Source: Escherichia phage ECP52
Reading direction: 5' to 3' (one strand)
DNA: 64,000 nt
Sequence record: ON782582.1
Both the position numbers and the translations under genes were made by a program. The notes under the pieces were generated by a model that saw nothing but the letters and a program-made list of their open reading frames with translations, was not told where the DNA came from and searched no databases. Of this stretch, positions 18,755-19,382 are shown piece by piece (the first letter of the stretch is position 1; the number at the start of each line of letters is the position of its first letter).

Positions 18755-18991
18755 ATGAAAATTGTTATGGGATGCTTAGCAGTTTGTTTAGTTGCATTAG
18801 CAGCAGTTCCATTTGTTAGTGTTGAAAATGATACTCAACCTGTGATTGAATCTAGCACCGTTATTCACACTAATGGTAAAATATCAGTTAAAATTGATGA
18901 TAATCTTCATGTGAATACAAATGGGTCTTTAGGTGTGCAAATGGGTAATATCTGCATAAGCACTACTGGAGTAATTACTACTTGCATTTGA
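18755..18991 (+). CDS. small secreted protein with signal peptide (78 aa)
   Basis: N-terminal hydrophobic signal MKIVMGCLAVCLVALAAVPFVSVE. Confidence 0.4.
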   Translation: MKIVMGCLAVCLVALAAVPFVSVENDTQPVIESSTVIHTNGKISVKIDDNLHVNTNGSLGVQMGNICISTTGVITTCI

Positions 18992-19001
18992 GGAAATTAT
19001 T

Positions 19002-19382
19002 ATGAAAATCGCTATTTTGGTTATTGCATTAGGTCTTACTGGTTGTGTAGCTCAAGGACCGGTAGTAAATCAGTCTGATGTAGGAAAAATTGTAAATTGT
19101 TCAAGCAAATTTTATAATCCTAATGTCAAGTGTTATAAAGAAGCTCCAAAGCAAACAGTAGAACAAATGCAGGCAAATTTTGACGAAGCTATTCGTCCAG
19201 ATGAATCTGCTCAAGCATATCGTAATTCGGATGTAATTACACGCGAAGAAAAAATTGAAAACTACTGCGCCGAGCTTTGGGCAAATTGGGCTAATAATTA
19301 CCAATGGCGTACCGGTAAAAATGCTCCGATGGAGTATGTAGTGAATTCTTATAATTCATGTGTAAAAAATTTGACTAAGTGA
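19002..19382 (+). CDS. putative lipoprotein (126 aa)
   Basis: Signal peptide with lipobox LTGC; AGGAAATTATT RBS. Confidence 0.45.
   Translation: MKIAILVIALGLTGCVAQGPVVNQSDVGKIVNCSSKFYNPNVKCYKEAPKQTVEQMQANFDEAIRPDESAQAYRNSDVITREEKIENYCAELWANWANNYQWRTGKNAPMEYVVNSYNSCVKNLTK

What the first reader, a model, noticed from the sequence alone, without database searches (positions are those of the whole stretch)
18755..19382. Secreted protein and lipoprotein pair upstream of imm
Directly after gene 43 and a cassette copy are a 78-aa protein with a cleavable-looking signal peptide and a 126-aa protein with a lipobox (LTGC), followed by the two-helix Imm candidate. Envelope-targeted early proteins next to imm are candidates for superinfection exclusion or another envelope function. 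I do not recall this pair from T4.
Basis: inference. Interest (0 to 1): 0.4.

Follow-up and report, generated by a model that had tools for sequence, protein, structure and literature searches.

The report
T4 imm.1 lipoprotein plus optional neighbour
The 126-aa "lipoprotein" is the already catalogued but uncharacterised phage T4 gene imm.1, which stays next to the superinfection-immunity gene imm in most T4-like phage genera sampled, and the 78-aa gene before it is a real but optional add-on that T4 itself lacks.

Summary
Both ORFs are real and lie exactly where reported, in a T2/T6-type Tequatrovirus.

**ORF126 (19002-19382)** is T4 imm.1.
- The DNA is near-identical to T4, and it matches Pfam DUF5481 (5e-72) and phrog_1754.
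- It has a rule-conforming lipobox (LTGC, Cys15), no Asp at +2, and an even number of mature cysteines.
- dN/dS is about 0.
- In T4 it is made early (RNA and protein) and is non-essential.
- Lipoproteins of this family sit beside or one gene from imm in 11 of 13 T4-like loci examined. The pair was relocated together in Mosigvirus, and the gene order is permuted in Gaprivervirus and Dhakavirus.
- My inference is that it is an outer-membrane-tethered periplasmic accessory of the Imm/Spackle exclusion system. This is untested.

**ORF78 (18755-18991)** is a separate, faster-evolving accessory gene (phrog_4189, dN/dS about 0.3).
- It occurs in about 65% of Tequatrovirus records.
- T4 lacks it through an exact 247-bp indel bounded by ATGAAAAT.
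- Its 21-residue hydrophobic N-terminus may be a membrane anchor rather than a cleaved signal peptide.
- The slot it occupies holds unrelated genes in other lineages.

No characterised homologue or informative fold match exists for either protein. These are known genes of unknown function, of modest interest.

The parts
18584..18601 (+). Intrinsic terminator hairpin after gene 43 (AGGGACC-TCCG-GGTCCCT followed by a T run). This is the stem-loop part of the PeSL cassette.
   Evidence: Terminator scan and sequence. Conserved in T4, L020 and L021.
18689..18717 (+). T4-early-type sigma-70 promoter: -35 (G)TTTACA, 17-nt spacer, extended -10 TGGTACTAT. It would drive ORF78, imm.1, imm and ORF49.
   Evidence: Promoter scan. 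Matches the PST/T4 PeSL consensus TTTACW-N17-TAYWAT (PMC4122927). Diverged copies occur elsewhere in the window. T4 imm.1 is classed as early RNA and early protein (PMC9697503 supplement).
18755..18991 (+). ORF78 (phrog_4189): accessory early gene. It encodes an N-terminal hydrophobic segment (codons 3-23) and a C-terminal domain of about 55 aa built of three beta-hairpin-like repeats (xTNGxhxVxh), predicted to be periplasmic.
   Evidence: phrog_4189, 4e-30; 325 phage records; alleles; dN/dS 0.27-0.35; AF2 model with six strands but pLDDT only 52.
18755..18823 (+). Hydrophobic N-terminus of ORF78 (MKIVMGCLAVCLVALAAVPFVSV). It is either a signal-anchor or a signal peptide. A candidate AXA site lies at 16|17. 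This allele has no valid lipobox.
   Evidence: Other alleles carry in-frame 21-bp duplications here, and the HY01 form gains an LAAC lipobox at Cys18.
19002..19382 (+). imm.1 orthologue (Pfam DUF5481, phrog_1754): predicted outer-membrane-anchored periplasmic lipoprotein of 126 aa. The mature part has 4 Cys and a confident C-terminal helical hairpin.
   Evidence: (5.4e-72).
19002..19046 (+). Lipoprotein signal peptide and lipobox L-T-G-C (Cys15). The +2 residue is Val.
   Evidence: PROSITE PS51257 rule met. A lipobox is kept in 12 of 13 family members examined. The exception, P0018, has an AHA|SD signal-peptidase-I site.
19390..19641 (+). imm, the superinfection immunity inner-membrane protein (83 aa). 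Its SD (GAGG, 19381-19384) overlaps the imm.1 stop codon.
   Evidence: PF14373, 7.4e-16; phrog_1039; sequence. Imm binds the tape measure protein gp29 (preprint 10.64898/2026.03.06.709160).
19638..19787 (+). ORF49 (called 'gp42.1' by some annotators; phrog_3610): small hydrophobic protein. Its start overlaps the imm stop codon (ATGA).
   Evidence: conserved in T4, L020, L021; VR7 42.1, JS98 orf44; CHI14, Entb_45.

Best explanation
The interval holds two independent early genes on one transcript. The transcript starts at the PeSL promoter behind gene 43. Each downstream ribosome-binding site overlaps the preceding stop codon (ORF78 > imm.1 > imm > ORF49).

**(1) ORF126 is imm.1.**
- Shown from sequence: a lipoprotein signal peptide with Cys15, no Asp at +2, and a mature domain of about 110 aa with paired cysteines.
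- Inferred: it is exported, lipid-modified and delivered by Lol to the inner leaflet of the outer membrane, where its disulfide-bonded, largely helical domain faces the periplasm.
- Shown in T4 by others: it is made early and is dispensable for growth.
- Shown here: its gene family is confined to T4-like phages and travels with imm.
- Inferred: it is an accessory, periplasm-side component of T-even superinfection immunity. It would act on a superinfecting phage between outer-membrane puncture and membrane insertion of the tape measure protein. Spackle blocks the gp5 lysozyme at the earlier step and Imm blocks the tape measure protein at the later one. Alternatively it positions or stabilises Imm from the outer-membrane side.

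**(2) ORF78 is optional cargo in the variable slot directly after the PeSL.** It is a small bitopic or secreted beta-rich periplasmic protein that evolves faster than its neighbours. Its role is open. The most likely role is another envelope-level modulator of phage-phage or phage-host competition.

Identity and anatomy are near certain. The functional link to exclusion is the uncertain part, and the confidence score refers to it.
For: **Identity**
- The T4 alignment is near-identical apart from a 247-bp indel.
- The T4 record has imm.1 between 43 and imm.
- DUF5481 scores 239 bits against a cut-off of 27. phrog_1754 scores 5e-44.

**Export and periplasm**
- The lipobox rule is met and the +2 residue is V, A, G, Q or S, never D.
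- Mature Cys counts are 2 or 4 in all 13 members.
- P0018 replaces the lipobox with an AHA|SD signal, so export is conserved even where lipidation is not.

**Constraint**
- 18 synonymous and 0 non-synonymous differences against SA21RB.

**Synteny with imm**
- Tequatrovirus.
- Metagenomic L020 and L021.
- Mosigvirus ST0, where imm.1-imm sit next to sp, between genes 41 and 61.
- Moonvirus CF1, Jiaodavirus KpV477 and Gelderlandvirus CF-SP2.
- Gaprivervirus VR7 and Dhakavirus JS98, with the order imm-42.1-lipoprotein.
- Serratia phage 4S.
- Five of these distant lipoproteins were scored: four hit phrog_1754 as best match at 1.8e-48 to 9e-52, and KpV477 hit it at 5.8e-17 as second-best, after phrog_18344.

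**Co-occurrence in the phage collection**
- Imm.1 is found in 501 records at 95% identity or more and in 155 at about 33%. Imm is found in about 501 and 156 records in the corresponding identity bands.

**Expression and dispensability in T4**
- Early RNA and early protein (PMC9697503 supplement).
- 'Not Fit' in CRISPRi-ART (PMC11879866 supplement).
- 31 of 31 TA sites hit in HIDEN-SEQ, i.e. non-essential (10.1101/2025.11.20.689424 supplement).

**ORF78**
-.
Against: - No experiment links imm.1 to exclusion.
- Plasmid-borne Imm alone excludes T4 and binds gp29 without Imm.1 (preprint 10.64898/2026.03.06.709160; also Lu & Henning 1989, cited from my own knowledge).
- Imm homologues occur in more than 1,500 phage records, including many non-T4-like phages of about 45 kb, whereas my searches found the Imm.1 family only in T4-like phages. 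Imm.1 is therefore not a general requirement for Imm.
- Winklervirus CHI14 and Kanagawavirus Entb_45 carry the lipoprotein after gene 43 with no imm in the 3.4-kb locus.
- Synteny in compact early operons can reflect shared regulation rather than shared function.
- The structure model is only partly confident (pLDDT 64.5). It has no informative fold match, so there is no mechanistic handle.
- For ORF78 nothing beyond topology is known, and its model is poor (pLDDT 52).
Confidence: 0.4

Rival explanations
1. Imm.1 is an envelope protein whose job is unrelated to Imm. Examples would be stabilising or remodelling the outer membrane and peptidoglycan of the infected cell, resisting lysis from without, or countering a host envelope-level defence or colicins. 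On this view its adjacency to imm only reflects a cluster of early, export-directed accessory genes behind a shared promoter.
For: - Imm works alone from a plasmid.
- The Imm family is widespread without Imm.1.
- CHI14 and Entb_45 keep the lipoprotein but have no imm in the locus.
- The 43-to-42 interval is a recombination-prone slot that collects unrelated small genes.
Against: - The imm.1-imm pair moved as a unit to a different genome position in Mosigvirus and landed beside sp.
- Linkage survives a permuted gene order in two further genera.
- Record counts for the two genes track each other in Tequatrovirus and Mosigvirus.
Confidence: 0.33
2. Imm.1, ORF78 or both act in lysis timing or lysis inhibition. 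They would be periplasmic proteins that sense or handle the material a superinfecting phage leaves in the periplasm, working alongside RI and the holin T rather than blocking entry.
For: - Predicted periplasmic location and early expression.
- ORF78 has an N-terminal anchor plus a small periplasmic domain. From my own knowledge this resembles the antiholin RI in outline.
- Lysis inhibition depends on the Imm/Sp-mediated arrest of superinfecting phage (review PMC6832632, listed but not read in detail).
Against: - No sequence or profile similarity to any lysis protein.
- The genes are not near t, rI or rIII.
- T4 shows full lysis inhibition without ORF78 (T4 lacks it).
Confidence: 0.1
3. Imm.1 is a receptor-masking lipoprotein like T5 Llp or the Cor proteins. 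It would block the phage's own outer-membrane receptor, preventing re-adsorption and protecting progeny from cell debris.
For: It is a small early outer-membrane lipoprotein in a lytic coliphage, which is the same protein class as Llp (PMC9586334, title and abstract seen).
Against: - Imm.1 is 95% or more identical in 501 records with hosts as different as Escherichia, Shigella, Yersinia and Salmonella, and has dN/dS of about 0. From my own knowledge, T-even phages use different receptors (OmpC/LPS, Tsx, OmpF/FadL, OmpA), so a receptor-specific binder should vary with them.
- No similarity to Llp or Cor by Pfam, PHROG or fold search.
Confidence: 0.05
4. ORF78 is not a functional gene but a chance ORF or a decaying remnant between the PeSL and imm.1.
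For: - It is absent from T4 and from about a third of Tequatrovirus records.
- Truncated or scrambled versions exist (P0016, P0017, CT01).
- The structure model is poor.
Against: - The ORF is intact in 296 records at 80% coverage or more.
- All indels seen are in-frame.
- dN/dS is 0.27-0.35 overall and 0.18-0.26 in the C-terminal domain.
- It has its own SD, and 45 of 78 positions are invariant across ten alleles.
Confidence: 0.02

Closest known systems
[quoted passage not shown]
   Same: ORF126 is its orthologue. The DNA is near-identical, the position between gene 43 and imm is the same, and the lipobox and cysteines are the same.
   Different: - 126 aa rather than 125. The T4 RefSeq sequence has one extra C near the 3' end.
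- LTGC instead of LAGC.
- In this phage it is preceded by ORF78 and uses its own GAGG ribosome-binding site rather than the one in the PeSL.
T-even superinfection exclusion proteins Imm (inner membrane, binds tape measure protein gp29) and Spackle (periplasmic inhibitor of gp5 lysozyme)
   Same: Imm.1 is early, non-essential and envelope-located. It is encoded beside imm, and in Mosigvirus also beside sp (PMC7677548 abstract).
   Different: - No homology to either protein. hhalign against Spackle aligns only the signal peptide, with probability 6%.
- Predicted to be lipid-anchored to the outer membrane.
- No exclusion phenotype has been tested.
Lipoprotein superinfection-exclusion factors of other phages: T5 Llp, Cor of T1/phi80/N15, and Ltp of Streptococcus phage TP-J34 (recalled from my own knowledge; PMC9586334 for Llp)
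   Same: All are small phage-encoded lipoproteins exposed to the periplasm or cell surface that act at the entry step. Ltp, like Imm, is thought to target the tape measure protein.
   Different: - No sequence, profile or fold similarity.
- Imm.1 does not vary across phages with very different hosts, which argues against an Llp/Cor-type receptor mask.
PeSL (promoter-early stem-loop) cassettes of T4-type phages
   Same: A terminator hairpin, an early promoter, an SD and a start codon directly precede the variable gene. Copies lie elsewhere in the window. Indels map at the cassette's 3' edge.
   Different: The ORF78 indel is bounded by an 8-bp repeat (ATGAAAAT) at the two start codons, not by two full PeSLs. 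A short-homology deletion or insertion is as likely as mini-circle exchange.

Membership tests
T4 Imm.1 / Pfam DUF5481 (PF17578) | Match to the family HMM above the gathering score | tested here: met
   239.2 bits against a cut-off of 27, E = 5.4e-72, covering profile positions 1-103 of 103.
T4 Imm.1 / Pfam DUF5481 (PF17578) | Orthologous position and near-identity to T4 imm.1 | tested here: met
   The T4 record places imm.1 between 43 and imm. The alignment shows only scattered substitutions outside the 247-bp indel.
phrog_1754 (wider Imm.1 lipoprotein family of T4-like phages) | Match to the PHROG profile, shared with distant imm-linked lipoproteins | tested here: met
   Window protein 5e-44. 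CF1 1.8e-48, VR7 3e-47 and JS98 9e-52 as best match. KpV477 5.8e-17 as second-best, after phrog_18344.
Bacterial lipoprotein (signal peptidase II substrate) | Lipobox [LVI][ASTVI][GAS]C with Cys at positions 15-35, a basic n-region and an uncharged h-region (PROSITE PS51257 rule) | tested here: met
   ILVIALGLTGC with Cys15 and K2. The strict rule is met in 11 of 13 homologues. Phage 4S has a canonical LSGC that fails only the strict -4 position. P0018 lacks the Cys.
Bacterial lipoprotein (signal peptidase II substrate) | Actual diacylglyceryl modification and globomycin-sensitive processing | not testable with these tools
   Needs labelling or globomycin experiments.
Outer-membrane (Lol-sorted) lipoprotein of Enterobacteria | No Asp at position +2 after the lipid-modified Cys | tested here: met
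   The +2 residue is Val in the window and T4, and A, G, Q or S in the other members. The rule itself is cited from my own knowledge. Localisation was not tested.
Sec signal peptide cleaved by signal peptidase I (the claim made for ORF78) | Basic n-region, h-region of about 7-15 residues, and small residues at -3 and -1 | tested here: inconclusive
   K2 is present and an AXA site lies at 16|17. However, the uncharged run is 21 residues (28 in duplication alleles), with KD19 of 2.73, equal to the first transmembrane helix of Imm. No SignalP-type predictor is available here.
Bacterial lipoprotein (for ORF78) | Valid lipobox at positions 15-35 | tested here: not met
   The window allele has Cys7 and Cys11 only and does not match the rule. 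The HY01 duplication allele does (LAAC, Cys18).
phrog_4189 (ORF78 family) | Match to the PHROG profile | tested here: met
   E = 4.1e-30, covering profile positions 1-71 of 71, function unknown.
Superinfection-exclusion lipoproteins (Llp, Cor, Ltp) | Homology to a characterised member | tested here: not met
Superinfection-exclusion lipoproteins (Llp, Cor, Ltp) | Expression reduces plating or DNA entry of related phages | not testable with these tools
   Requires plating and DNA-injection assays.
Spackle (T4 gp61.3) | Sequence or profile similarity of the mature domain | tested here: not met
   hhalign probability 6%, and only the signal peptides align.
PeSL cassette (Arbiol 2010; Comeau 2014) | Stem-loop terminator, then an early promoter (TTTACW-N17-TAYWAT), an SD and an ATG, repeated in the genome and adjacent to indels | tested here: met
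   The indel relative to T4 lies at the cassette's 3' edge.

The most novel reading that the evidence does not exclude
Imm.1 is a missing third component of T-even superinfection immunity. It would be an outer-membrane-tethered periplasmic protein that, together with inner-membrane Imm, forms a trans-envelope (spanin-like in geometry) trap for the incoming tail tube or tape measure protein. That would explain why the two genes have stayed linked through relocation and reordering in most T4-like genera sampled. ORF78 would then be a lineage-specific specificity or add-on factor of the same barrier.
Probability: 0.25. Interest if true: 0.6.

Novelty: already known. Interest (0 to 1): 0.33.

Why it matters
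How T4 shuts the door on later-arriving phages is a classic problem that is now being solved structurally: Spackle binds the gp5 lysozyme, and Imm binds the tape measure protein. Every account so far has two players.

The comparative result here points to a cheap, direct experiment on a gene that sits in every T4 stock. A dedicated lipoprotein family, which these searches found only in T4-like phages, stays linked to imm through a relocation (Mosigvirus) and a change of gene order (Gaprivervirus, Dhakavirus). In T4 this gene is already known to be expressed early and to be dispensable.

If Imm.1 contributes, the exclusion barrier spans the whole envelope. If it does not, a strongly conserved, very early periplasmic protein still lacks a role.

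ORF78 also matters as a clean example of the gain and loss of small envelope genes at PeSL cassettes. Its alleles differ more than their neighbours do, the pattern expected of genes involved in phage-phage competition.

Tried and rejected
**Literature**
- Full-text searches for 'imm.1' mostly returned journal abbreviations.
- 'imm.1' combined with uvsX or spackle gave nothing relevant. 'DUF5481' gave zero papers.
- The T4 genome review PMC150520 is not held.

**Remote homology**
- An exhaustive HMMER search with mature Imm.1 against 1.84 billion representatives found only 5 proteins.
- A family-profile search of 5.8 billion proteins found 21 clusters. None carries a functional name; most lie on short contigs and six on contigs of about 170 kb.
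- NCBIfam and PADLOC gave only noise.

**Structure**
- The AF2 model of Imm.1 is confident only for the C-terminal helical hairpin (pLDDT 64.5 overall).
- The ORF78 model has pLDDT 52, too poor to search with.
- There are no PDB relatives by sequence.

**Ideas rejected**
- Imm.1 as a Spackle paralogue.
- A receptor-masking role (invariance across 501 records with diverse hosts).
- The window's ORF78 as a lipoprotein.
- The RefSeq product name 'iduronate sulfatase' for T4 imm.1, since there is no sulfatase domain.
- An RNA element or tandem repeat in the interval.

**Left unresolved**
- Whether ORF78 was gained or lost. The outgroup L021 and T4 both have imm.1 directly on the PeSL ribosome-binding site. 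However, the imm.1 ribosome-binding site in the window resembles the one in Mosigvirus.
- Whether CHI14 and Entb_45 carry imm elsewhere in their genomes (one search was not informative on this).
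Full report
**What is there**

The window is a T4-like (Tequatrovirus) genome read in the direction of early transcription. The gene order is 44, 62, regA and 43 (15875-18571), then the finding, then imm, dCMP hydroxymethylase (42), a glucosyltransferase, uvsX, 40 and 41.

After the gene 43 stop codon come three elements.
- A terminator hairpin at 18584-18601.
- A promoter of T4-early type at 18689-18717 (GTTTACA, 17 nt, TGGTACTAT).
- A GGAG ribosome-binding site at 18745-18748.

This terminator-promoter-SD-ATG unit is what Krisch and colleagues call a PeSL cassette. Their T4/PST consensus, TTTACW-N17-TAYWAT, fits it (PMC4122927). Its promoter-proximal 90 bp has diverged copies at four other places in the window.

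Each downstream gene's ribosome-binding site overlaps the previous stop codon, and ORF49 overlaps the imm stop codon (ATGA). The four genes therefore look like one translationally linked early operon. No Rfam family or tandem repeat lies in the interval.

**ORF126 is T4 imm.1**

- The T4 reference record has a 125-aa gene, imm.1, between 43 and imm.
- A direct alignment shows near-identity throughout. T4 reads LAGC where the window reads LTGC, and T4 has one extra C just before the stop codon.
- The protein matches Pfam DUF5481 at 239 bits (E = 5e-72) and phrog_1754.
- The statement that this gene is not in T4 is therefore a lapse of memory.
- The RefSeq product name for T4 imm.1, 'iduronate sulfatase', has no support in any domain search.

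**ORF78 is genuinely absent from T4**

T4 differs from the window by one clean 247-bp indel. Both edges fall in ATGAAAAT, the shared first eight bases of ORF78 and imm.1. As a result, T4 imm.1 sits directly on the ribosome-binding site that serves ORF78 here.

ORF78 (phrog_4189, function unknown) occurs once per genome in 325 phage records; every record listed and every locus inspected is a T4-like phage, and imm.1 occurs at 95% identity or more in 501 records. About two thirds of Tequatrovirus records therefore carry ORF78.

It is a real gene.
- All length variants are in-frame. They include 21-bp duplications within the hydrophobic N-terminus and a 6-bp insertion.
- 45 of 78 residues are invariant among ten alleles.
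- dN/dS is 0.27-0.35 overall, and 0.18-0.26 for the C-terminal domain.

It also diverges more than its neighbours. Synonymous divergence (dS) reaches 0.45, against 0.28 for imm.1 and 0.14 for imm in the same genome pair.

I could not decide the direction of the indel. An outgroup contig (L021) has the T4-like arrangement. However, the imm.1 ribosome-binding site in the window resembles the one in Mosigvirus.

**Topology of the two proteins**

*Imm.1*
- It satisfies the PROSITE lipoprotein rule (K2, an uncharged h-region, L-T-G-C with Cys15).
- It has Val at +2. By the Lol-avoidance rule (cited from my own knowledge), this predicts sorting to the outer membrane.
- Across 13 family members, 12 keep a lipobox. 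The +2 residue is never Asp.
- One metagenomic member (P0018) instead has a signal-peptidase-I site, AHA|SD. Export is therefore conserved even where lipidation is not.
- The mature part always has 2 or 4 cysteines. C89 and C120 are conserved family-wide, as expected for periplasmic disulfides.
- AlphaFold gives a confident C-terminal helical hairpin (residues 81-125, pLDDT about 88) and a poorly defined N-terminal half.

*ORF78*
- Its N-terminus is an uncharged 21-residue run that is as hydrophobic as the first transmembrane helix of Imm. It has an AXA site at 16|17.
- It could be a cleaved signal peptide or a signal-anchor. I cannot decide which without a dedicated predictor or an experiment.
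- This allele has no valid lipobox. The HY01 allele gains one through duplication.
- The C-terminal 55 residues contain three similar turn motifs (TNG, TNG, TTG). The model is six short strands, at low confidence (pLDDT 52).

**The main comparative result**

The Imm.1 family is narrow.
- An exhaustive HMMER scan of 1.84 billion representative proteins with the mature domain found five proteins.
- A family-profile search of 5.8 billion proteins found 21 clusters. None carries a functional name; most lie on short contigs and six on contigs of about 170 kb, the size of T4-like genomes.

Within T4-like phages the family is wider than Pfam's DUF5481. Four lipoproteins of 146-167 aa score 1.8e-48 to 9e-52 on phrog_1754 as their best match, and a fifth (KpV477) scores 5.8e-17 as its second-best match.

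| Lineage | Arrangement at the locus |
|---|---|
| Tequatrovirus (window) | 43 - ORF78 - imm.1 - imm - ORF49 - 42 |
| Metagenomic L020, L021 | imm.1 followed by imm |
| Moonvirus CF1 | 43 - 79 aa - lipoprotein - imm - 42 |
| Jiaodavirus KpV477 | 43 - lipoprotein - imm - 42 |
| Gelderlandvirus CF-SP2 | 43 - lipoprotein - imm - 42 |
| Serratia phage 4S | 43 - lipoprotein - imm-like |
| Gaprivervirus VR7 | 43 - imm - 42.1 - lipoprotein |
| Dhakavirus JS98 | 43 - imm - 42.1-like - lipoprotein |
| Mosigvirus ST0 | imm.1 - imm next to spackle, between genes 41 and 61 |
| Winklervirus CHI14 | lipoprotein after 43, no imm in 3.4 kb |
| Kanagawavirus Entb_45 | lipoprotein after 43, no imm in 3.4 kb |

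In Mosigvirus the pair has left the 43-42 interval altogether and lies next to spackle.

Record counts agree. Imm.1 is found in 501 plus 155 records, and Imm in about 501 plus 156 records in the matching identity bands.

The slot between the PeSL and imm.1 is variable.
- Empty in T4, L021 and KpV477.
- ORF78 in the window.
- A Frd.3-like gene in L020.
- A phrog_4535 gene in CF1.

ORF78 and Imm.1 are therefore not a conserved pair. Imm.1 and Imm are.

**Limits of that inference**

- Two lineages (CHI14 and Entb_45) carry the lipoprotein after gene 43 but have no imm within 3.4 kb.
- Imm homologues are found in more than 1,500 phage records, including many non-T4-like phages in which my searches found no Imm.1 family member.
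- A 2026 preprint shows that plasmid-borne Imm alone excludes T4 and binds the tape measure protein gp29. It does not mention imm.1 (10.64898/2026.03.06.709160).

Imm.1 therefore cannot be required for Imm activity. At most it is an accessory specific to T4-like phages.

**Experimental facts about T4 imm.1 from supplements**

- It is classed as early at both RNA and protein level, in the same class as sp (PMC9697503).
- Knock-down has no fitness effect ('Not Fit', PMC11879866).
- All 31 TA sites tolerate transposon insertion, so it is non-essential (10.1101/2025.11.20.689424).

This profile is what one expects of an exclusion or competition gene, because such screens use single infections. It is also compatible with other accessory roles.

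**Mechanism proposed**

*Shown:* the export signals, the cysteine pattern, very strong purifying selection (18 synonymous and 0 non-synonymous differences in one pair), early expression, dispensability, and linkage to imm.

*Inferred:* Imm.1 is lipidated and anchored in the inner leaflet of the outer membrane. From there it contributes to the periplasmic stage of superinfection immunity. It could do so by binding a virion component that emerges after puncture (the gp5-gp27 tip, the tube end, or the hydrophilic part of gp29). Alternatively it could contact the periplasmic face of Imm and form a barrier that spans the envelope. I put this at about 0.4.

*Main rival (about 0.33):* an envelope function independent of Imm, with the synteny reflecting a shared early, export-directed gene cluster.

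*Less likely:*
- A role in lysis inhibition.
- A receptor-masking role like T5 Llp. Imm.1 is essentially invariant in 501 records with hosts from Escherichia to Yersinia and Salmonella, which argues against it.

For ORF78 I can commit only to a small periplasm-facing, membrane-anchored or secreted accessory protein. Its elevated divergence and presence/absence polymorphism suit a competition-related function.

**Comparison with the known, and verdict**

- No characterised homologue, solved structure or informative fold match exists for either protein. Similarity to Spackle is limited to the signal peptide.
- In kind, Imm.1 would be closest to the lipoprotein exclusion factors of other phages (Llp, Cor, Ltp). 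It fails the homology test for membership, and its activity is untested.
- As sequence features both genes are already in the databases. imm.1 is a named T4 gene, and ORF78 is a 'hypothetical protein' in hundreds of records. The finding is therefore not new.
- What this work adds is the correction of the T4 claim, the separation of the supposed pair, and the imm.1-imm linkage across genera. That linkage makes a specific, inexpensive experiment worth doing.
- Interest is modest.

Noticed in passing
window 19638-19787 (+): ORF49 is a 49-aa very hydrophobic protein (phrog_3610) whose ATG overlaps the imm stop codon (ATGA). It is conserved in T4 (not in the NC_000866 feature table), L020, L021, VR7 ('gp42.1'), JS98 orf44, CHI14 and Entb_45, with an invariant ...LLQxK(Y/F)EC(I/F)N tail. 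It is probably a real third small membrane protein of the imm locus.
   Followed up: partly
window 20526-21374 (+): The gene after 42 is a 282-aa beta-glucosyl-HMC-alpha-glucosyltransferase (phrog_842, 2e-89), not the 351-aa beta-glucosyltransferase of T4. There is also no segA before uvsX. The phage therefore has T2/T6-type DNA glucosylation.
   Followed up: partly
L001 (T4 NC_000866) 4637-5014 (-), compared with window 19370-19392: The T4 RefSeq sequence has one extra C near the imm.1 3' end. This shortens Imm.1 to 125 aa and opens an upstream in-frame start that gives a 94-aa Imm, the form used for cryo-EM in preprint 10.64898/2026.03.06.709160. In the window and five other Tequatroviruses a stop codon lies 5 codons upstream of the imm ATG, so that extension is not conserved.
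   Followed up: yes
L001 (T4 NC_000866) 4637-5014 (-): RefSeq names T4 imm.1 'iduronate sulfatase', and the name has spread to other records (for example the JLBYU phages). No sulfatase domain is detectable, so this looks like an annotation artefact.
   Followed up: yes
L007 (Shigella phage CT01, OK018184.1) 909-1746: The locus is scrambled. A partial imm.1 5' end is followed by a partial ORF78, then a second copy of the promoter-to-SD segment, then a complete imm.1. This is either a real recombination scar at the PeSL or an assembly artefact.
   Followed up: partly
ORF78 alleles P0008, P0014 (HY01; L004 1426-1683) and P0015, corresponding to window 18773-18811: In-frame 21-bp (7-residue) duplications lie within the hydrophobic N-terminus and lengthen it from 21 to 26-28 uncharged residues. 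The HY01 version creates a canonical LAAC lipobox at Cys18, and UniRef calls it 'Lipoprotein'.
   Followed up: partly
L028 (Serratia phage CHI14) 1501-2680; L029 (Enterobacter phage Entb_45) 1495-2775: An Imm.1-family lipoprotein directly follows gene 43 and is followed by an arabinose-5-phosphate isomerase/SIS gene and a 42.1-like ORF. No imm lies in the locus. The related Serratia phage 4S (L030) has the lipoprotein followed by an imm-like gene.
   Followed up: partly
window 45131-45222, 45417-45482, 48553-48632, 37163-37248: These are diverged copies (76-83% identity) of the promoter-to-SD part of the cassette that precedes ORF78. They are presumably other PeSL elements in hyperplastic regions of this genome.
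   Followed up: no
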